From a virus (Duplodnaviria; Heunggongvirae; Uroviricota; Caudoviricetes), in the IMG/VR virus record IMGVR_UViG_2687453163_000002, positions 1-40,904 of that record: a DNA stretch of 40,904 bases. One strand, written 5' to 3'. Made by a program: the position numbers and the translations under genes. The notes beneath the pieces were generated by a model that saw nothing but the letters and a program-made list of their open reading frames with translations, made no database searches and had not been told where the DNA came from. Of the stretch, positions 3,688-34,509 are shown piece by piece. How positions within the stretch are numbered: the first letter of the stretch is position 1; every line of letters starts with the position of its first letter.

Positions 3688-4166
3688 TGGTTGCCTCCTT
3701 TGCGAAGCTGGTCGGCGAACAAACGTACACTAGATGCTTCACTGCGTAGAAACTTAACGGCATAATCAAAACCACCTCGTTCTGCGTCGTCTGCTCCGTT
3801 GTCGAGGTTATCTGCGTACATCTCTACCCCCTGCGCCCGTACTTCAGCCAGGAAAGCATCGGTGGCTGGAGTTTCAGTAACATCATCTTCCCATTCGCTA
3901 AACTCCTCACGACAAAAGTCATTAAATTCCTTCTCAGATTGCTTAAGTGAGGTATTTTCAGCAGCCATCTTCGCGCATTTAGCCTCAAGGTTATCAATCG
4001 TGATTCCAGCAGAACGACACTCCCGCAACGCCGTTTCTAGTTTTGATTCAAGTTCACCGAACTTACGCACAAGATATTCAGCGTTTGTTTCGTTAACCTT
4101 TAAATCTCGTGGGATGCATTTACCTTTCAGAAAACCATCCATCTCAATTAGTGTCATTTGTTTCAT
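3684..4166 (-). CDS. hypothetical coiled-coil protein
   Basis: 160-aa ORF whose stop overlaps the start of the downstream gene; acidic and coiled-coil-like. Confidence 0.5.
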
Positions 4167-4327
4167 TTCTTCCCACTCCGCAACATCGCATTCAGATACT
4201 TGTTTTGATTCACTGATGGAAAAGAATTTCTCTTAAGCAATTCCTCTCTCGATGGCATTGGCTTTACGCGTTGGCGAATAATCATTTCTGCCGGAAGAAT
4301 GCCGGGGTTGTATGCAAGTCCTCTCAT
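4163..4327 (-). CDS. small hypothetical protein (start uncertain: 4327, 4345 or 4477)
   Basis: ORF 4163-4477 overlaps 4338-4631 in another frame; internal ATG at 4327 is preceded by GAGGAA, giving a 54-aa product. Confidence 0.35.
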
Positions 4328-5038: not shown

Positions 5039-5643
5039 TAAGCAGCCGCTCCTTCTAATTCGTCTCGTCTGATGTTGTAAACGTCCTGCGCTTTGTGCTG
5101 CTCCGGTGTGCCTTCGAGCATCTTCCACGCTTTGGCGAACGCCTGTTTAAGCTCTTCCACGGTGTTTTTCTGCAATGCTGCGTCAGTGAATGCTTTTAGA
5201 ACCTGTTCAGGTGTAGGTGATGGTTTTGATTGCTTTGCTGCTGCGTTCTGCTGATGTTTATGCTCGTCGGTATCTGCATCTTTCGCATCATCAATGCCGA
5301 ACAAACCATTGAGGCAATACTTGCGTGCATAAGAGCTTGTAGCTCCCGTAACTTGTGCAGAATCCATTCCTTTCTTGCTTTCTTCCTCTCGTGCAAGAGC
5401 GGTTGCTGTATGACTGTTTTCGCCATCAGTAATAGTTGCCGTTGCTTTCACGTAATACCGATCACCAATCAACACAACTTCATCGCTGATTGATAAAAAC
5501 AGGCCATTCAGTAACGGCTTAACGCCTTCAAGAATGTCTTCGCAGCTTCTGTATTTATATTTACCGAATGAGTTGTACTGATTCTTTGGCGCGTTCAGAT
5601 TCTCCTGAATGGCTGCCAGCCTTGCATAAAATTCTTTGCTCAT
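5038..5643 (-). CDS. erf: Erf single-strand annealing recombination protein
   Basis: From MSKEFYARLAAIQENLNAPKNQYNSFGKYKYRSCEDILEGVKPLL..., closely matching recalled P22 Erf; ORF track start at 5673 is probably too early. Confidence 0.85.
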   Translation of the reverse strand: MSKEFYARLAAIQENLNAPKNQYNSFGKYKYRSCEDILEGVKPLLNGLFLSISDEVVLIGDRYYVKATATITDGENSHTATALAREEESKKGMDSAQVTGATSSYARKYCLNGLFGIDDAKDADTDEHKHQQNAAAKQSKPSPTPEQVLKAFTDAALQKNTVEELKQAFAKAWKMLEGTPEQHKAQDVYNIRRDELEGAAA

Positions 5644-5744
5644 ATGTTTGATCTCAGAATGGACACGGCCCAAGAAAATAACGCTGATTTAATACTTCGA
5701 CTCGGGACAAATTAAGGCATACCCGCATTCCTTCGCGGTCGCCA

Positions 5745-5903
5745 TTATGGCGATACCAGAGAGCTTTCTGCGTGTACATGCGTCTCTGTAACCTGCTCTC
5801 CTTCACTGTGGTTGCAAGTGACATGAATATCTCCTTCGTTACCGATTAATTCTTTCATATGACGAATGAATTCTTCGTCTGACCAGTTATCTGTAAAACT
5901 CAT
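5745..5903 (-). CDS. small hypothetical protein (52 aa) at the kil/arf position
   Basis: ATG overlaps the stop of the upstream cIII-like ORF (ATGA coupling); lies between the cIII-like gene and erf. Confidence 0.4.
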   Translation of the reverse strand: MSFTDNWSDEEFIRHMKELIGNEGDIHVTCNHSEGEQVTETHVHAESSLVSP

Positions 5904-6070
5904 GGACGGCCTTGTTGTTTCAAAATATCCCAAAGCTTTTCGAGCAAACTTTTCATTCTTGGTTGTTTAAAGTCTGCTCCGGTTAAAATGTTTTTTCGTG
6001 AATGCTGTACCGATAAAATCGGGTTGAAAGGGCGAACCGATGCCGCCCCTGCAATAGCGAACTGTTGCAT
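5900..6070 (-). CDS. cIII: CIII-like protein (putative FtsH inhibitor), 56 aa
   Basis: Hand-translated MQQFAIAGAASVRPFNPILSVQHSRKNILTGADFKQPRMKSLLEKLWDILKQQGRP; AAGGAG RBS; resembles lambda CIII (MQYAIAG..., SLLER..., ...DILNQPGVP) from memory. Confidence 0.5.
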   Translation of the reverse strand: MQQFAIAGAASVRPFNPILSVQHSRKNILTGADFKQPRMKSLLEKLWDILKQQGRP

Positions 6071-6146
6071 AGGATGCTCCTTCTGTTTTATTGCATAACG
6101 AAAAACGCCTCGAGTGAAGCGTTATTGGTATGCGGTAACGCAGCGC

Positions 6147-6515
6147 TCAGACGGCTTTGATAGTCATATCATCTGAATCAAATATTCCTGATGTATCGAT
6201 ATCGGTAATTCTTATTCCTTCGCTACCATCCATTGGAGGCCATCCTTCCTGACCATTTCCATCATTCCAGTCGAACTCACACACAACACCATATGCATTT
6301 AAGTCGCTTGAAATTGCTATAAGCAGAGCATGTTGCGCCAGCATGATTAATACAGCATTTAATACAGAGCCGTGTTTATTGAGTCGGTGTTCAGAGTCTG
6401 ACCAGAAATTATTAATCTGGTGAAGTTTTTCCTCTGTCATTACGTCATGGTCGATTTCAATTTCTATTGATGCTTTCCAGTCGTAATCAATGATGTATTT
6501 TTTGATGTTTGACAT
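6147..6515 (-). CDS. hypothetical acidic protein
   Basis: 122-aa ORF with GAGGA RBS, directly preceded by a terminator-like hairpin; acidic C-terminal third. Confidence 0.5.
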   Translation of the reverse strand: MSNIKKYIIDYDWKASIEIEIDHDVMTEEKLHQINNFWSDSEHRLNKHGSVLNAVLIMLAQHALLIAISSDLNAYGVVCEFDWNDGNGQEGWPPMDGSEGIRITDIDTSGIFDSDDMTIKAV

Positions 6516-6532
6516 CTATTCATATCCTCATA

Positions 6533-6561
6533 GATAAAAAATCGCCCTCACACTGGAGGGC
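6533..6561 (-). terminator. rho-independent terminator-like hairpin (GCCCTC/GAGGGC + T-run)
   Basis: Minus strand: GCCCTCCAGTGTGAGGGC followed by ATTTTTTAT. Confidence 0.45.
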
Positions 6562-6973
6562 AAAGAAGATTTCCAATAATCAGAACAAGTCGGCTCCTGT
6601 TTAGTTACGAGCGACATTGCTCCGTGTATTCACTCGTTGGAATGAATACACAGAGCAGTGTTTATTCTGTTTTTTATGGCAAAAATAAAAGCTGCCATTA
6701 GGCAGCCTTGTTGTTCTGTTTACCAAGTTCTCTGGAAATCATTGCCGTCGTTCGTATTGTCCACACCATTGATTTTTATCAATAGTCGTAGTCATACGGA
6801 TAGTCCTGGTATTGTTCCATCACATCCTGAGGATGCTCTTCGAACTCTTCAAATTCTTCTTCCATATATCACCTCAAATAAGTGGTTTGCTGCCTAATTT
6901 CATTTTCTGGCGACCAACACAAGTCACACCCATTTCACTGCGTGGCTTGCGGTAGTAAATTAGGTTTGTTCAG

Positions 6974-6998
6974 ACAATAAAAAACCCACCGAAGTGGG
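6974..6998 (-). terminator. rho-independent terminator-like hairpin downstream of the 6999-7343 gene
   Basis: Minus strand: CCCACTTCGGTGGG followed by TTTTTTATT. Confidence 0.5.
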
Positions 6999-7343
6999 CT
7001 ATGACCATTTTTTATTTGGATTTCGTTGGTGAGCGTGATTAACAACTCTGTGCATTACATCCTCATATTTTTCATCTTCAATTTTTTCGACATCGCGAGG
7101 AAATGGTGTTGCTAATGCTTTGTCAACTTTGTCCATTGGGTCTTCATTAATCTTATATTCAGGGCCATCATCTATAGCATTAAATCCAGGTGTTACACCG
7201 TTTTTTAATGCATATGCTATCCTTTTTTCCCATCTCGCTATTCTCCTCCTGTCTCGAGATGTAAGACCTCTATCAGATACTTTTCTGTTTTGTCCGCGGT
7301 CAGGATTAACATAAATAGTCTTTTTCACCATAAGCATACTCAA
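6999..7343 (-). CDS. hypothetical basic protein immediately downstream of the N-like gene
   Basis: 114-aa ORF whose start overlaps the N-like stop; Arg/Lys-rich N-terminus, acidic C-terminus; no family recognised. Confidence 0.5.
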   Translation of the reverse strand: MSMLMVKKTIYVNPDRGQNRKVSDRGLTSRDRRRIARWEKRIAYALKNGVTPGFNAIDDGPEYKINEDPMDKVDKALATPFPRDVEKIEDEKYEDVMHRVVNHAHQRNPNKKWS

Positions 7344-7645
7344 TAAGCACCGTACGGTAGTTTACTGTACAATTTTATTTTTTGGACTGCATGTATTTTG
7401 TTTCCTAATGGGTTTGAATCTTTGTAATAAATACTTCTATTTTTTCGAACGACTTCTTCTTTCTTCTTGCAGCAAAGGCATCCTAGCGATGCTGCTTTGT
7501 CTGCTCTGACGCAACCAGAGAGCTTTAGCGCAATTTTTCGCGCCAGTGCTTCATTACTGCGTCGCTCGGCAATAAGTTCTGCTCTGCGAGCTTTGTAGCG
7601 GCTTTTTGCCGTACCTTTGGATTCTTTCCAGACAATGGTTACCAT
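7340..7645 (-). CDS. N-like transcription antiterminator (P22 gene 24 analogue)
   Basis: Start at MVTIVW preceded by AAGGAG; arginine-rich motif GTAKSRYKARRAELIAERR; first gene downstream of the PL/nutL region. Confidence 0.7.
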   Translation of the reverse strand: MVTIVWKESKGTAKSRYKARRAELIAERRSNEALARKIALKLSGCVRADKAASLGCLCCKKKEEVVRKNRSIYYKDSNPLGNKIHAVQKIKLYSKLPYGAY

Positions 7646-7755
7646 GATGGTCTCCTTTAAGTGGCTTTGGCGCATGACGCGTCGAGGTGCTTATCTTCTC
7701 GATCGCTGTCTTGCAGCTGCAATTCGCGCCATCCCCAAAACCACTCAAGTTCTGG

Positions 7756-7796
7756 TCTCAACGGTTAGGTTGAGAGTCCGTCGATGTTAAAGAGCC
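7756..7796 (-). promoter_or_regulatory. nutL: nutL-like site (boxA GCTCTTTAACA plus boxB hairpin)
   Basis: Minus strand GGCTCTTTAACATCG, then hairpin TCTCAAC-CTAACC-GTTGAGA; the same loop CTAACC recurs at the nutR candidate. Confidence 0.6.
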
Positions 7797-7839
7797 TGCC
7801 AATCTGTTCCGTTTGGCTTCCAGCGTCCTGCTGATGGCT

Positions 7840-7905
7840 TAAATTTAAGACTTCTTAATTTATTGGTCAAGTGCATTTTTGAAGAAAACTTAATTTTATG
7901 GGCGT
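7840..7905 (-). promoter_or_regulatory. PL promoter with OL operators
   Basis: Minus strand TTGACC-17 nt-TAAATT; palindromic ATTTAAGACTTCTTAATT element overlapping the spacer. Confidence 0.6.
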
Positions 7906-7930
7906 GAATTTAGTTTGTCTTTGATTTTTA

Positions 7931-7959
7931 ACGGGAAATAAAAAAGGGGCGAAAGCCCC
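7931..7959 (-). terminator. rho-independent terminator after the repressor gene
   Basis: Minus strand AAGGGGCTTTCGCCCCTTTTTATTT directly after the c2 stop codon. Confidence 0.6.
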
Positions 7960-8610
7960 TTAAGGAAGGTTTGCTAGCTTGGCATCAACGACAACGCCAA
8001 TGATTTTACAGTTCCCATTGATTTCAATCATTGGGTATTGTGGATTGAGTGGTTTCAGGAATTTTCTACCGGCATCAATAACTAACTTTTTGAATGTCGC
8101 CTCGTTTTCTCCTTCAAGTTTGGCGACTACCAACTTTCCATTACGTGGTTCGACTTCTGGGTCGACGAGAATAATCATCCCCTCAGGAATACTCAGTCCT
8201 GCCGGGGCAGTCATTGAATCGCCTTTAACGTCGAGCCAAAAAGAGTCTTCAGAACAATCTACCGTTGTGTCGTACCAGTTATCTATTGCACGCCTATGAT
8301 ATGGCTCTACAGCTTCCATCCAACATCCTGCGCTTACCCAACTAATTAGAGGATACGAACCTCTTGGATCATGCCTGCTGTGATAGGCAATGTTTGAAAG
8401 ACTATCCTCTCCTTTCAACAGGTAATCAGGGGAGCACTGCAAAGCCTTGGCTAAGGCCAATAGGTTTTCGCCATTGGGCTCAGTTTCAGATCGCTCCCAT
8501 TGGGAAATAGCAACATTAGACACGCCAACCATCTTGCCAAGGGCAGCCTGCCTAATCTTGAGTTCTTTTCTGCGAGCGCGAATACGCTCACCCATCAGTT
8601 GTGTATTCAT
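7960..8610 (-). CDS. c2: C2 repressor (P22 c2-type, LexA-like autocleavage domain)
   Basis: 216-aa ORF MNTQLMGERIRARRK...GVVVDAKLANLP, near-identical to recalled P22 C2; HTH segment QAALGKMVGVSNVAISQWE. Confidence 0.95.
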   Translation of the reverse strand: MNTQLMGERIRARRKELKIRQAALGKMVGVSNVAISQWERSETEPNGENLLALAKALQCSPDYLLKGEDSLSNIAYHSRHDPRGSYPLISWVSAGCWMEAVEPYHRRAIDNWYDTTVDCSEDSFWLDVKGDSMTAPAGLSIPEGMIILVDPEVEPRNGKLVVAKLEGENEATFKKLVIDAGRKFLKPLNPQYPMIEINGNCKIIGVVVDAKLANLP

Positions 8611-31530: not shown

Positions 31531-33527
31531 TGGCTAAAGCATGGAAAGATGTTATCGCCTCTCCACAGTATCAGGCGTTAGCACCAGAACAAAAAGCGCA
31601 GGCTCAGGAGCAATACTTCAATGAAGTCGTGGCCCCGCAAGCCGGAGGAAATGCAGAGCAGGCTAAGCAAGCTTTCTATGCAGCCTATCCATTGCCATCT
31701 GTGCAGCCAGTGGAGACACAGCAACCAGTAGCACAGCAACAACCACAGCAAAGTGGATTTATGTCTGATCTTGGTGAAGCAGTGAAAGAGACTGGTCGCG
31801 GACTGGTGCAGGCTGGCGTGAACGTGGCAAACATACCTGCATCAGTTGCCGATGCTGTAACAAGCGCGGCTGCATGGGCTGGCGGTAAACTCGGCATTGG
31901 CGATGGAACATATCAACCCGCGCCACGAGTAACAACTCATGGATTAGAGCAGGACTTTGGCCTTCAGCAAGGCGCGCTGACTCCACAAACGACAGAGGGC
32001 AGGGTATTTGCTGAAGCATTGCCTTACCTCACTCCTGCTGGCGTTGAGAGAGCGGCAGCACAGGCACCAACACTTGCTGGTCGAATTGCTCAGGGGGCAA
32101 CTCGCCTTCTAGCAGAAAACGCAGTTGGATCACTTGCTGCAAATAGTGCGAAAGATGATGCGGAAGCACTCGCCACCGATTTAGGTGTTGGTGTACTTGC
32201 TGGCGGTGCTATTAACGCTGCTGGACGTGGATTAGGTGCTGCTTATCGTGGAGTTCGTGGTGCGATAGCGCCAGAAGCGCAACAGGCTATCAGGTTTGCA
32301 GAGCGTGAAGGAGTGCCTCTGCACACCACAGACCTGTTACAACCAACTTCCCGCGTCGGAAAAATGGCGCAGACTACAGCAGAAAATATCCCTCTGGCTG
32401 GAACAAGCGGAATGAGAGCAACGCAACAGGAAGCGAGAAGCCAGTTGGTGCAGAGATTTGCTGATAAATTCGGGGAGTATGATCCAGCGGTTGTTATTGA
32501 CAGCCTTAAAGCGAAAACATCAGGAATTCGTCGTGCCGCCGGTAATCGACTGGAGCAGGTTCAGAATGCTATGGCTGGAGTAAACATTCAGCCTGCGCGA
32601 GCAATTCAGCAGATTGATACAGAAATATCTAACCTGCAGAAGCTTGGTAAGGTGGCTGATAACGAGACAATTTCAAAACTTCAGTCATATCGTGATGAGC
32701 TTGTTCGCAATGCTGGCCCTGAAGGTCCGGTAAATCTGGATTTGAAGCAATTAAGCGACCTGCGCAGTCAGTTCAGAATGGACGTGAAGGGTGAGCGACC
32801 AGTGTTACCAAACCGTTCCGATGCTGCCATTCAGCGCGTTTACAAGGCGATGACCGACGATATCAATGGTGCCATTGGTCAGAATCTTGGCAACGATACT
32901 CTCCGTAAATATCAGCAGGCCAATGCCGTCTACGCTGACGAAGCGGCGAAACTAAAGAATACCAGGCTGAAGAATGTTCTCATGAAAGGCGACCTGACGC
33001 CGGAAGTTGTCAACAACATGCTATTCAGCAAGAACAAATCGGAAATTAAGACGCTGTATAACTCAGTTGGTCGTGTTGGCAGGGTGCAAATGCGCAATGG
33101 CATCATTGGAAAGGCGATGGAGAAATCTGGCGGATCCCCTGACCAGTTCCTTCGGCAGCTTAACATCCTGCAAAACCAGACTGGCATCACATTTAAGGGG
33201 CAGGACGCTGCTTATCTGAAAGGATTGAAAAATTACCTTCAGTCCACTCAGCAGGCAGCAAAAGCGGCAGTAACAACACCAACAGGGCAGCAAACCATCC
33301 CGTTCATTATCGGGTATGGGACGGCAATGAACCCGGCGACAACTGGCGCAGCAGTAAGCTACGGACTTCTTACTCGCGCCTATGAGAGCGAACCATTCAG
33401 AAATGCAATGCTCCGAATGGCAAACACCCCACGCGGATCAACAGCGTTCGAGAAAGCCATGCAGCAGGCACAAAAGGCCATTAACGCCCTGACTCAGGGG
33501 GCTAAGTCTGATGCGCTGTCAGAATAG
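31530..33527 (+). CDS. ejection protein (P22 gp16 position)
   Basis: 665-aa ORF in conserved order, Ala/Gly-rich segments. Confidence 0.65.
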   Translation: MAKAWKDVIASPQYQALAPEQKAQAQEQYFNEVVAPQAGGNAEQAKQAFYAAYPLPSVQPVETQQPVAQQQPQQSGFMSDLGEAVKETGRGLVQAGVNVANIPASVADAVTSAAAWAGGKLGIGDGTYQPAPRVTTHGLEQDFGLQQGALTPQTTEGRVFAEALPYLTPAGVERAAAQAPTLAGRIAQGATRLLAENAVGSLAANSAKDDAEALATDLGVGVLAGGAINAAGRGLGAAYRGVRGAIAPEAQQAIRFAEREGVPLHTTDLLQPTSRVGKMAQTTAENIPLAGTSGMRATQQEARSQLVQRFADKFGEYDPAVVIDSLKAKTSGIRRAAGNRLEQVQNAMAGVNIQPARAIQQIDTEISNLQKLGKVADNETISKLQSYRDELVRNAGPEGPVNLDLKQLSDLRSQFRMDVKGERPVLPNRSDAAIQRVYKAMTDDINGAIGQNLGNDTLRKYQQANAVYADEAAKLKNTRLKNVLMKGDLTPEVVNNMLFSKNKSEIKTLYNSVGRVGRVQMRNGIIGKAMEKSGGSPDQFLRQLNILQNQTGITFKGQDAAYLKGLKNYLQSTQQAAKAAVTTPTGQQTIPFIIGYGTAMNPATTGAAVSYGLLTRAYESEPFRNAMLRMANTPRGSTAFEKAMQQAQKAINALTQGAKSDALSE

Positions 33528-33616
33528 CTTCGCAAACACCAGGAACGTGCAAAAACCAAATATGTAGAACGCAATATTCAGCATATCTCTTTGCATAAAT
33601 CCTCCGTAATGGATGG

Positions 33617-33877
33617 TTATCTACTGTCTTTTTTGTATATCTTCTTGAGCGTATCAAAGACAATTTTCTTAACCATATCAGATTGTTGTTCTGCCATACG
33701 CTCTGCATCGTCAATGTAAACTGATGCAGAGTTTTGTTTATCCAGTGATTCTTCAATCGCTGCAATTATCTCTGAGTTCAGAGACCTGTTATTCATCTTC
33801 GCACGCTGCTTAATTTTCGCGTGGAGTTCATGCGGAAGTCTCAAGTGAAACTGCGCCTCGTCGTATTTGCTGTACAT
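33617..33877 (-). CDS. mnt: Mnt-like ribbon-helix-helix repressor (orphan)
   Basis: FHLRLPHELHAKIKQRAKMNNRSLNSEIIAAIEESL...DAERMAEQQSDMVKKIVFDTLKKIYKK resembles recalled P22 Mnt; start chosen at MYSKYD (GAGG 8 nt upstream). Confidence 0.7.
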   Translation of the reverse strand: MYSKYDEAQFHLRLPHELHAKIKQRAKMNNRSLNSEIIAAIEESLDKQNSASVYIDDAERMAEQQSDMVKKIVFDTLKKIYKKDSR

Positions 33878-34008
33878 CCTTGATGCCTCACCAATTGGGT
33901 GGAATGGCATCGTAACTTACTGGATAAATACTCAATAGTACCATTTCGGTATGCAATCACATCATGGTTGCATCATATCATTCGTCTGGAGCAATGAAAT
34001 GTCAGATA

Positions 34009-34509
34009 TCACCTACTCAACAGATGGTCAGCAACCATGTTTGCTGCCTTATAAGCTATAGCCGCTTCATCAATGGTGTTGAATCTCCCAAGGGTTATGT
34101 TTTTACCTGAGACATTTATCTGAGCTTGCCATTGATTTCTTGCTTGACAGAAAGTTACCCCCTTGATTCCAGCATTACTATTTCGAGGTCCGACATTTAA
34201 TGCATTTACGACTCTGCTGACATCCCTAAGGTTTGAGATTGCGTTATTTCTTCTGTTTCTATCAATGTGGTCAATCTCTTGTTTGGGCCATTCGCCATAT
34301 ACATACAGCCAGGCAAGTCTATGTGCAAAATATCTTACGCCATCAATATTAATTGCGTTATATCCATAAGAAATTGTGCCAGCAACTTTCCCAACAGCAC
34401 CTCTGGCGCTTAATTTCTTTTTCCAAGTGAAAATTCCTGTTTCTTTATTGTAATCGAGAACTTCCATAAGGCGCTCACGAGTTACTACCTCGTGACGTCT
34501 CTTACTCAT
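34009..34509 (-). CDS. HNH endonuclease with AP2-like DNA-binding domain
   Basis: HNH motif [20 protein letters not shown] and AP2-like [43 protein letters not shown]; start at MSKRRHEV with GGAG RBS; AT-rich. Confidence 0.7.

What the first reader, a model, noticed from the sequence alone, without database searches (positions are those of the whole stretch)
6147..7343. Uncharacterised genes and a structured 480-bp gap in the immediate post-N segment
Two ORFs (114 and 122 aa) flank a region (6516-6998) with two minus-strand terminator-like hairpins, a perfect 9-bp inverted repeat (GTGTATTCA...TGAATACAC at 6626-6653) and a tiny highly acidic ORF (6779-6865, MEEEFEEFEEHPQDVMEQYQDYPYDYDY) with a GAGGTG RBS. 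In lambdoid phages this N-proximal segment carries exclusion or anti-restriction functions, but none of these products resembles a family I recognise.
Basis: partly seen in the sequence, partly recalled or inferred. Interest (0 to 1): 0.4.

Follow-up and report, generated by a model that had tools for sequence, protein, structure and literature searches.

The report
Nun, Ea10, orf28 and PreS sRNA
The flagged stretch is an already-described piece of a lambda-like phage's early leftward operon: the HK022 Nun exclusion protein, a broken ral anti-restriction gene with lambda's small orf28, the Hfq-dependent small RNA PreS ending at terminator tL2a, and lambda gene ea10. It is ordinary rather than new.

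Summary
None of it is uncharacterised.

- **6147-6515(-)** is lambda Ea10 (120/122 aa, DUF2528).
- **6999-7343(-)** is HK022 Nun (109/110 aa; PDB 6ALG). It keeps the HK022 promoter sequence and a terminator of its own.
- **6779-6865(-)**, the acidic ORF, is lambda orf28 (28/28 aa).
- **6698-6795(-)** is a ral pseudogene. A 103-bp deletion between imperfect direct repeats inactivated it.
- **6535-6622(-)**, the core of the "structured gap", is the sRNA PreS/LPR1. It matches lambda at 88/88 nt and ends at tL2a (bioRxiv 10.1101/2024.10.31.621285).
- **6624-6651(-)**, the inverted repeat, is a 12-bp RNA hairpin that ends 2 nt before PreS +1.

Small additions:
- The hairpin travels with PreS as one mosaic unit. 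In five viral contigs an unrelated hairpin sits at the same position.
- orf28 shows purifying selection (11 of 14 variable sites at codon position 3) and stays intact where ral is deleted.
- The nun cassette is flanked by two diverged 3' ends of N.

Verdict: already known, low interest.

The parts
6104..6123 (-). Intrinsic-terminator-like hairpin plus U tract just downstream of ea10. It is at the lambda position I recall as tL2b; that name is from memory and was not checked.
   Evidence: 8 pairs, then TTTTCGTT. (-9.9 kcal/mol, z -3.8). Sequence identical to lambda in alignment A1.
6147..6515 (-). ea10, the lambda Ea10 protein (DUF2528). It is abundant early in lambda infection; its function is unknown.
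6535..6622 (-). PreS (LPR1), an 88-nt Hfq-dependent sRNA of the pL operon. The seed UGUUCUGAUUAUUGGAA is intact. A processed form of about 68 nt is reported in lambda.
   Evidence: The lambda sequence was rebuilt from primers P968, P969, P1103 and P1104 of bioRxiv 10.1101/2024.10.31.621285 Table S5. It matches the window 88/88. Function in lambda. Fold -28.9 kcal/mol, z -3.1.
6534..6563 (-). Terminator tL2a (stem 6542-6563, U tract 6535-6541). It is the 3' end and Hfq-binding module of PreS.
   Evidence: Annotated as 'Transcription terminator tL2a' in phage O276 NC_049951. That 30-nt feature is identical to the window at 6534-6563. The terminator scan also finds it.
6624..6651 (-). In this window the pairing extends over 6620-6655. 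It has no U tract, so it is not a terminator. I infer a role in defining or stabilising the PreS 5' end.
   Evidence: z -7.4. 115 of 120 viral contigs carrying the PreS seed have this hairpin; 108 of them are identical and 7 differ by one nucleotide. The other 5 have an unrelated 11-bp hairpin ending at the same position. 40 of 119 mosaic breakpoints fall 0-1 nt beyond it.
6688..6709 (-). Strong intrinsic-terminator-like hairpin (9 bp plus UUUUAUUUUU) overlapping the ral stop codon. This variant is specific to the window; the site pairs weakly in lambda.
   Evidence: -14.5 kcal/mol, z -3.0. It differs from lambda at 4 positions. It is absent from all 146 fetched loci.
6698..6795 (-). ral pseudogene. 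A 103-bp deletion (junction at 6756/6757, ambiguous by 4 nt) shifts the frame and leaves MTTTIDKNQWCGQYERRQ*.
   Evidence: Alignment with lambda. Translation. The deletion lies between imperfect direct repeats 103 bp apart. Phage E212 has the same-sized deletion with a different junction. 5 IMG/VR loci are truncated the same way.
6779..6865 (-). orf28, lambda's 28-aa hyper-acidic ORF (MEEEFEEFEEHPQDVMEQYQDYPYDYDY). Its SD GAGGTG is at 6870-6875, and it overlaps the ral start by 17 nt.
   Evidence: 28/28 identical to lambda NP_040623. phrog_16060 E = 7e-19. Across 48 loci, 11 of 14 variable sites are at codon position 3; distinct changes are 11 synonymous to 5 non-synonymous against an expected synonymous fraction of 0.127 (p = 3e-7); there are no stops or frameshifts.
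6874..6970 (-). Non-functional remnant of the 3' end of a phage-21-type N gene (...IYYRKPRSEMGVTCVGRQKMKLGSKPLI*), left downstream of the nun cassette.
   Evidence: 95.5% nt identity to the phage 21 N 3' end. Translation. Phage 21 annotation.
6983..7000 (-). Intrinsic terminator of nun (7-bp stem, UUCG loop, U tract). Three stem pairs differ from HK022 by compensatory changes.
   Evidence: z -3.8. Alignment with HK022 and O276.
6999..7331 (-). nun, the HK022-type Nun transcription-arrest / lambda-exclusion factor (110 codons from ATG 7331). The upstream in-frame starts at 7337 and 7343 give the 112-aa and 114-aa versions.
   Evidence: 109/110 aa identical to HK022 Nun. PDB 6ALG chain N E = 2e-71 and 1HJI. 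phrog_5632. ARM, H98, K106, K107 and W108 are all present (sequence compared with PMC5386594).
7364..7392 (-). nun promoter, -10 TACAGT (7364-7369) and -35 ATGCAG (7387-7392), as annotated in phage O276. Here it is embedded in the 3' coding part of N.
   Evidence: O276 annotation. A 51-nt block containing both elements is identical in the window.
7340..7645 (-). N antiterminator (context). The first ~58 aa, nutL and pL are phage-21 type. The C-terminal ~43 aa are the HK022-associated variant.
   Evidence: phrog_271.

Best explanation
This is the N-distal part of the pL (early leftward) operon of a mosaic HK620/P22-like lambdoid phage. All features lie on the minus strand, in this order from pL:

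1. A phage-21-type N gene.
2. The HK022 nun gene, with its own promoter and terminator.
3. A dead 3' fragment of a second N gene.
4. lambda orf28.
5. A ral gene inactivated by a 103-bp deletion.
6. A stable hairpin.
7. The 88-nt Hfq-dependent sRNA PreS, ending at terminator tL2a.
8. ea10.

How it works, shown in lambda or HK022 and inferred here from near-identity. Nun is made constitutively in the lysogen. Its arginine-rich motif binds boxB of an incoming lambda's nut RNA. Its C-terminus then locks RNA polymerase, which excludes lambda. This phage is expected to escape its own Nun because it uses phage-21-type N and nut. After induction, N-modified transcription from pL reads through the terminators. 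PreS accumulates, binds Hfq through its tL2a hairpin and U tail, and base-pairs with host mRNAs. In lambda it activates dnaN and represses alaS, which boosts phage DNA replication. Ea10 is an abundant early protein of unknown role.

Inferred from this analysis only:
- The hairpin abutting PreS is part of the PreS unit and probably sets or protects its 5' end.
- orf28 is a real translated gene. Its function is unknown and does not depend strictly on ral.
For: Identities: Ea10 120/122 aa, Nun 109/110 aa (PDB 6ALG and 1HJI), orf28 28/28 aa, PreS 88/88 nt.

Annotation and literature: tL2a and the nun promoter are annotated in O276 and identical here. Nun mechanism comes from PMC5386594 and PMC4124055.

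Context: pL, nutL and the N-terminal part of N are identical to phage 21. The ral deletion is shown. The same nun-orf28-ral-PreS order, with ral intact, occurs in IMG/VR loci L032, L117 and L129 and in E. coli prophages.

New inferences: hairpin conservation and its replacement by an unrelated hairpin; orf28 codon-position bias.
Against: Nothing contradicts the identifications. The limits are these:
- Function here is transferred from lambda and HK022 by sequence identity. No expression data exist for this phage.
- PreS has no Rfam family, so the match rests on a preprint's primer sequences.
- The strong window-specific terminator at 6688-6709, 65 nt upstream of the hairpin, could lower PreS output if N antitermination is incomplete.
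- That Nun does not act on phage-21-type nut sites is from my memory of the older literature and was not checked here.
- The orf28 selection test counts distinct changes among closely related sequences and includes no phylogenetic correction.
Confidence: 0.92

Rival explanations
1. One reading: the segment encodes a previously unrecognised superinfection-exclusion or anti-restriction system, made of two novel proteins, a novel acidic peptide and a novel structured RNA.
For: The position after N is where lambdoid phages keep such accessory genes. PADLOC, NCBIfam and Pfam (apart from DUF2528) return no named function for Ea10 or orf28.
Against: Every element is at least 98% identical to a named lambda or HK022 element. 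Two of them, Nun and PreS, have experimentally established mechanisms.
Confidence: 0.03
2. orf28 is not a functional protein. Either it is only a leader ORF whose translation delivers ribosomes to the overlapping ral start (translational coupling), or it is a chance ORF in the N-ral spacer.
For: It overlaps the ral ATG by 17 nt. Every one of the 48 orf28 copies in the sampled IMG/VR loci lies upstream of a ral 3' end or ral remnant. CRISPRi knock-down in lambda gives no plaque defect (PMC10695390). No homologue outside the near-identical lambda-type block could be searched for, because the peptide is too short or too low in complexity for the tools.
Against: A pure coupling leader needs only to be translated, yet the amino-acid sequence is conserved: 11 synonymous against 5 non-synonymous distinct changes, p = 3e-7, and 39 of 48 copies are identical in protein. 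The ORF, its start and its SD are intact in this window, and the ORF is intact in the five IMG/VR loci where ral is destroyed.
Confidence: 0.3
3. The 6624-6651 inverted repeat is unrelated to PreS. It could be a DNA-level protein-binding palindrome, an RNase III site serving ral mRNA decay, or a 3' stabiliser of the upstream ral message.
For: The PreS preprint does not mention it. It lies just outside the 88-nt sRNA as those authors defined it. A 12-bp stem can act as a barrier to 3' exonucleases.
Against: It stays attached to PreS in 81 of 119 contigs that lack ral upstream, and breakpoints cluster at its 5' edge. Where its sequence is replaced, another hairpin ends at the same nucleotide relative to PreS +1, so structure and position are conserved rather than sequence. 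That argues against a sequence-specific DNA site. IS903 splits it in HK022 and O276, which shows it is dispensable for phage viability.
Confidence: 0.2

Closest known systems
Lambda PreS (LPR1) sRNA with terminator tL2a (Silverman et al., bioRxiv 10.1101/2024.10.31.621285)
   Same: 88/88 nt identical, including the seed, the terminator hairpin and the U tail. It sits at the same place, 5' of ea10 and 3' of ral, in the pL operon.
   Different: ral upstream is a pseudogene here. An extra strong terminator-like hairpin lies 65 nt upstream of the 5' hairpin. One substitution (A at 6654) lengthens the 5' hairpin. The operon is driven by phage-21-type pL, N and nut rather than lambda's.
HK022 Nun transcription-arrest factor (PDB 6ALG, 1HJI)
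   Same: 109/110 aa identical. The ARM and the C-terminal residues H98, K106, K107 and W108 are present. The promoter region is identical and the terminator is at the same position.
   Different: In HK022, nun follows putL and only a 38-codon relic of N. Here it follows a complete N gene whose 3' end overlaps the nun promoter. There is one substitution (S12R in the 110-aa numbering).
Lambda Ea10 (DUF2528, PF10800)
   Same: 120/122 aa identical, same length, same position upstream of cIII.
   Different: Nothing of note (Y43H and A122V).
Lambda Ral (restriction alleviation) and lambda orf28
   Same: orf28 is identical in protein. The ral start, its SD and its 3' end are all recognisable.
   Different: ral has lost 103 bp and is frameshifted to an 18-aa stub, so the anti-restriction function is presumably gone while orf28 is kept.

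Membership tests
PreS / LPR1 sRNA | Sequence of the 88-nt RNA, including the 17-18-nt seed deleted in lpr1-delta-seed | tested here: met
   Exact 88/88 match at 6535-6622(-) to the sequence bounded by primers P968/P969 and P1103/P1104.
PreS / LPR1 sRNA | Rho-independent terminator (tL2a) with U tail as 3' end and Hfq-binding module | tested here: met
   8-bp GC-rich stem followed by UUUUUUA. Identical to the tL2a feature annotated in O276.
PreS / LPR1 sRNA | Expressed in the lytic cycle, Hfq-bound, regulates dnaN and alaS | not testable with these tools
   Shown for lambda only.
HK022 Nun | N-terminal arginine-rich motif that binds lambda boxB | tested here: met
   Residues 20-45 match the 26-aa Nun peptide of 1HJI, E = 5.5e-11. 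The ARM is identical to HK022.
HK022 Nun | C-terminal RNAP-arrest determinants (H93, R94, N97, H98, H100, R102, K106, K107, W108) | tested here: met
   The C-terminus ...MHRVVNHAHQRNPNKKWS is identical to HK022. The residue list is from PMC5386594.
HK022 Nun | Constitutive expression from its own promoter in the prophage, and exclusion of lambda | not testable with these tools
   The promoter sequence annotated in O276 is identical here. Activity was not tested.
Ea10 / DUF2528 | Match to PF10800 above the gathering score | tested here: met
   158 bits against a cut-off of 22.
Ral antirestriction protein | Intact ORF of about 66 aa | tested here: not met
   A 103-bp deletion and frameshift leave an 18-aa stub. 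It is filed as a pseudogene, not a member.
Lambda orf28 (phrog_16060) | 28-aa acidic ORF overlapping the ral start, with an SD | tested here: met
   28/28 identity. phrog_16060 E = 7e-19. SD GAGGTG.
Intrinsic terminator | GC-rich hairpin immediately followed by a U tract | tested here: met
   True for 6104-6123, 6542-6563, 6688-6709 and 6983-7000.
Intrinsic terminator | U tract after the 6624-6651 hairpin | tested here: not met
   The hairpin is followed by GGAGCAAUGUCG, so it is not a terminator.

The most novel reading that the evidence does not exclude
Two small things are not in the literature I could read.

(a) orf28 may be a genuinely translated, selected 28-aa hyper-acidic, tyrosine-rich microprotein (12 acidic residues, no basic residues other than one His). 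Because it is kept intact where ral is deleted, its function would not depend on ral. It might act as a mimic of acidic protein tails or of nucleic acid, against a host or competitor protein.

(b) The hairpin abutting PreS may be a conserved, structure-specified part of a PreS precursor that sets or protects the sRNA's 5' end.
Probability: 0.35. Interest if true: 0.4.

Novelty: already known. Interest (0 to 1): 0.15.

Why it matters
It matters little as a discovery. The region is a textbook lambdoid accessory segment made of known modules. It is useful for annotation:
- The "hypothetical" 114-aa gene of such prophages should be named Nun.
- The ea10-ral spacer should be annotated with PreS and tL2a.
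- ral here should be marked as a pseudogene.

The side observations give cheap, testable leads. They bear on how PreS is made, on whether lambda's long-ignored orf28 is a functional microprotein, and on how HK022's nun region arose.

Tried and rejected
- **Rfam** (E-value mode) over 5500-8200: no hit, so PreS is not a curated family.
- **orf28 homologue searches**: orf28 is also below the 30-aa minimum for structure prediction.
- **Genome-contig scan with Ea10**: it returned almost only lambda DNA contaminating unrelated assemblies, so it gave no useful diversity.
- **PADLOC and NCBIfam**: no hits for Ea10, Nun or orf28.
- **A sigma-70 promoter for PreS**: rejected. No promoter-like site was found upstream of 6622, and by eye the sequence matches at most 2-3 of 6 positions in any -10 frame. 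Processing from the pL transcript is more likely.
- **The 79-aa plus-strand ORF 6658-6897**: rejected. The variable third positions of orf28 fall on its second codon positions.
- **Lambda ribosome-profiling paper**: not held in the library. One literature search on 'tL2a' returned only noise.

Full report
**Observation.** The ORF list confirms a 122-aa ORF at 6147-6515(-), a 114-aa ORF (TTG start) at 6999-7343(-) and a 28-aa acidic ORF at 6779-6865(-). GAGGTG lies at 6870-6875, 4 nt before the ATG of the acidic ORF. The consensus scan of 5600-8100 finds 10 terminator-like sites against 2.1 +/- 1.6 in shuffles. Four are on the minus strand in or beside the finding: 6104-6123, 6542-6563, 6688-6709 and 6983-7000. 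The 9-bp inverted repeat exists, but at 6624-6632 / 6643-6651, 2 nt left of the stated coordinates. As RNA it forms a 12-bp stem with a CAAC loop (16 bp in this window), at -17.8 kcal/mol and z = -7.4. The observation therefore holds, with one small coordinate error and one more hairpin than reported.

**What the window is.** Megablast of the first 25 kb gives a mosaic of HK620, HK022, CUS-3 and similar lambdoid or P22-like phages, none covering more than 49%. The flagged 1.3 kb matches 387 phage records and prophages in 2,264 of 5,426 complete E. coli genomes, at 90-99% identity.

**The two "uncharacterised" proteins.**
- The 122-aa product is lambda Ea10. It is 120/122 identical to NP_040621 and matches Pfam DUF2528 at E = 1e-46 and phrog_646.
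- The 114-aa ORF is HK022 Nun. From its internal ATG at 7331 it is 109/110 identical to the HK022 protein. It matches PDB 6ALG chain N (E = 2e-71) and the Nun ARM peptide of 1HJI, and it falls in phrog_5632, "Nun-like transcription termination factor".
- The ARM and the C-terminal residues H98, K106, K107 and W108, which are implicated in arrest (PMC5386594), are all present.
- A 51-nt block containing the nun -10 and -35 elements annotated in phage O276 is identical at 7353-7403.
- The nun terminator (6983-7000) differs from HK022's by compensatory stem changes.

**The acidic ORF and the missing gene.** Alignment with lambda shows that 6100-6880 is collinear with lambda 33,488-34,370, apart from a 103-bp gap.
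- The acidic ORF is lambda orf28 (NP_040623), 28/28 identical; it is phrog_16060.
- The gap removes the middle of ral. The remnant at 6698-6795(-) reads MTTTIDKNQWCGQYERRQ*.
- The deletion lies between two imperfect direct repeats of about 23 nt, 103 bp apart: GGACAATTCAAGCGATGCAATGG and GGGCAATACGAACGACGGCAATG.
- Phage E212 has a deletion of the same size but a different crossover point. The event has therefore happened at least twice.
- Five IMG/VR contigs carry the same kind of stub.

**The "structured gap".** Phage O276 annotates the hairpin next to ea10 as terminator tL2a, and that feature is identical to window 6534-6563. A literature search on ea10 led to Silverman et al. (bioRxiv 10.1101/2024.10.31.621285), who report the following:
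- An Hfq-bound sRNA, LPR1, renamed PreS, lies "between ea10 and ral", and its 3' end is tL2a.
- It runs as bands of about 88 and about 68 nt and is made in the lytic cycle.
- It activates dnaN and represses alaS by base pairing.
- It increases lambda DNA replication and spontaneous induction.

Their deletion and T7-template primers (Table S5) delimit the RNA. That 88-nt sequence occurs exactly once in the window, at 6535-6622(-), with no mismatch. Rfam 15 has no family for it. The preprint does not mention it.

**New analysis of the hairpin.** I fetched 120 IMG/VR contigs that carry the PreS seed.
- 115 have the same hairpin: 108 are identical and 7 differ by one nucleotide.
- 5 (L036, L052, L079, L096, L102) have an unrelated stem sequence that still folds into an 11-bp hairpin ending at the same nucleotide relative to PreS +1.
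- One contig (L084) likewise replaces the tL2a stem with a different GC-rich hairpin.
- Only 38 contigs have ral 5' of the module, 39 have ea10 3' of it, and 59 have neither.
- 40 of 119 upstream breakpoints lie 0-1 nt beyond the hairpin.

Hairpin, PreS and tL2a therefore behave as one mosaic unit, and it is the structure of the hairpin that is conserved. No sigma-70-like promoter precedes +1. I infer that PreS is cut from the pL transcript and that the hairpin helps define or protect its 5' end. This inference is untested.

**New analysis of orf28.**
- In 48 contigs the 87-nt ORF has 16 distinct sequences and 14 variable sites.
- 11 of the 14 variable sites are at codon position 3 (p = 7e-4). 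The figure is 10 of 12 outside the ral overlap.
- Distinct changes are 11 synonymous to 5 non-synonymous, against an expected synonymous fraction of 0.127 (p = 3e-7).
- None of the 48 copies has a stop or frameshift, and a Shine-Dalgarno sequence is conserved upstream.
- The ORF is intact here and in the other contigs where ral is deleted.

This supports a translated, constrained peptide. It does not reveal a function. In lambda, knock-down of orf28 has no plaque phenotype (PMC10695390).

**Context and origin of the arrangement.**
- pL, the OL operators, nutL and the first ~58 codons of N are identical to phage 21.
- From about 7466 to about 6975 the sequence is HK022-like. This block holds a variant N C-terminus, the nun promoter, nun and its terminator.
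- 6874-6970 is a dead copy of the phage 21 N 3' end.
- HK022 itself keeps 38 codons of the N-like C-terminus upstream of nun.
- Four of six nun-bearing IMG/VR contigs have a full 21-type N followed by nun.
- N-nun therefore looks like the original unit, and HK022 (putL instead of N) looks like a derivative.
- Contigs L032, L117 and L129 have the window's nun-orf28-ral-PreS order with ral intact.

**Mechanism.**
- Shown in lambda or HK022 and transferred here by near-identity: Nun excludes lambda by boxB binding and RNAP arrest; PreS acts through Hfq on dnaN and other host mRNAs; terminators tL2a and its neighbours punctuate the N-antiterminated pL transcript.
- Inferred: the phage tolerates its own Nun because its nut sites are 21-type (this specificity is from memory); the hairpin belongs to the PreS precursor; orf28 is a functional microprotein.

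**Verdict.** The finding is real but already explained. Novelty: already known. Interest is low (0.15), with two modest follow-up leads.

Noticed in passing
window 6874-6970 and 7340-7466; L003 (HK022) 4058-4190: The nun cassette is bracketed by two diverged copies of an N-gene 3' end. The in-frame HK022-type copy forms the C-terminus of N. A phage-21-type copy is left as a dead remnant. HK022 keeps 38 codons of the N-like C-terminus upstream of nun. Four of six nun-bearing IMG/VR loci have a complete 21-type N plus nun, which suggests that HK022's putL-nun arrangement derives from an N-nun unit.
   Followed up: partly
L003 (HK022) about 2610 and 3662; L004 (O276) about 2055 and 3107: In HK022 and O276, IS903 is inserted inside the PreS 5' hairpin, with a 9-bp target duplication TTGGAATGA. 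PreS and tL2a themselves are intact there.
   Followed up: yes
window 6654 and 6688-6709: Window-specific substitutions strengthen two hairpins. An A at 6654 extends the PreS 5' hairpin to 16 bp. Four changes after the ral stop codon create a perfect terminator-like hairpin (GGCTGCCTAATGGCAGC) that is absent from all 146 fetched loci.
   Followed up: partly
L010, L013, L014, L018, L020 and others (genome-contig hits): Near-identical lambda DNA, including contigs of about 48.4-48.5 kb (some at roughly 1x coverage), appears in assemblies labelled Shewanella, Pseudomonas, Neobacillus, Oceanobacillus, Kitasatospora and others. This is most likely lambda control-DNA contamination of those assemblies.
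   Followed up: no
IMG/VR loci (e.g. L084; L036, L052, L079, L096, L102): PreS occurs with alternative 5' hairpins (5 loci) and an alternative terminator hairpin (L084), while the seed region is unchanged. Seven loci carry a Ral variant truncated after ...ARELG.
   Followed up: partly
[not shown]
   Followed up: partly
window 7960-8610 and 7676-7960: The repressor ORF starts like P22 C2 by my recollection (not checked with a tool), while pL, OL, nutL and N to its left are identical to phage 21. The phage 21 record annotates a shorter (190-aa) repressor in the same place.
   Followed up: no
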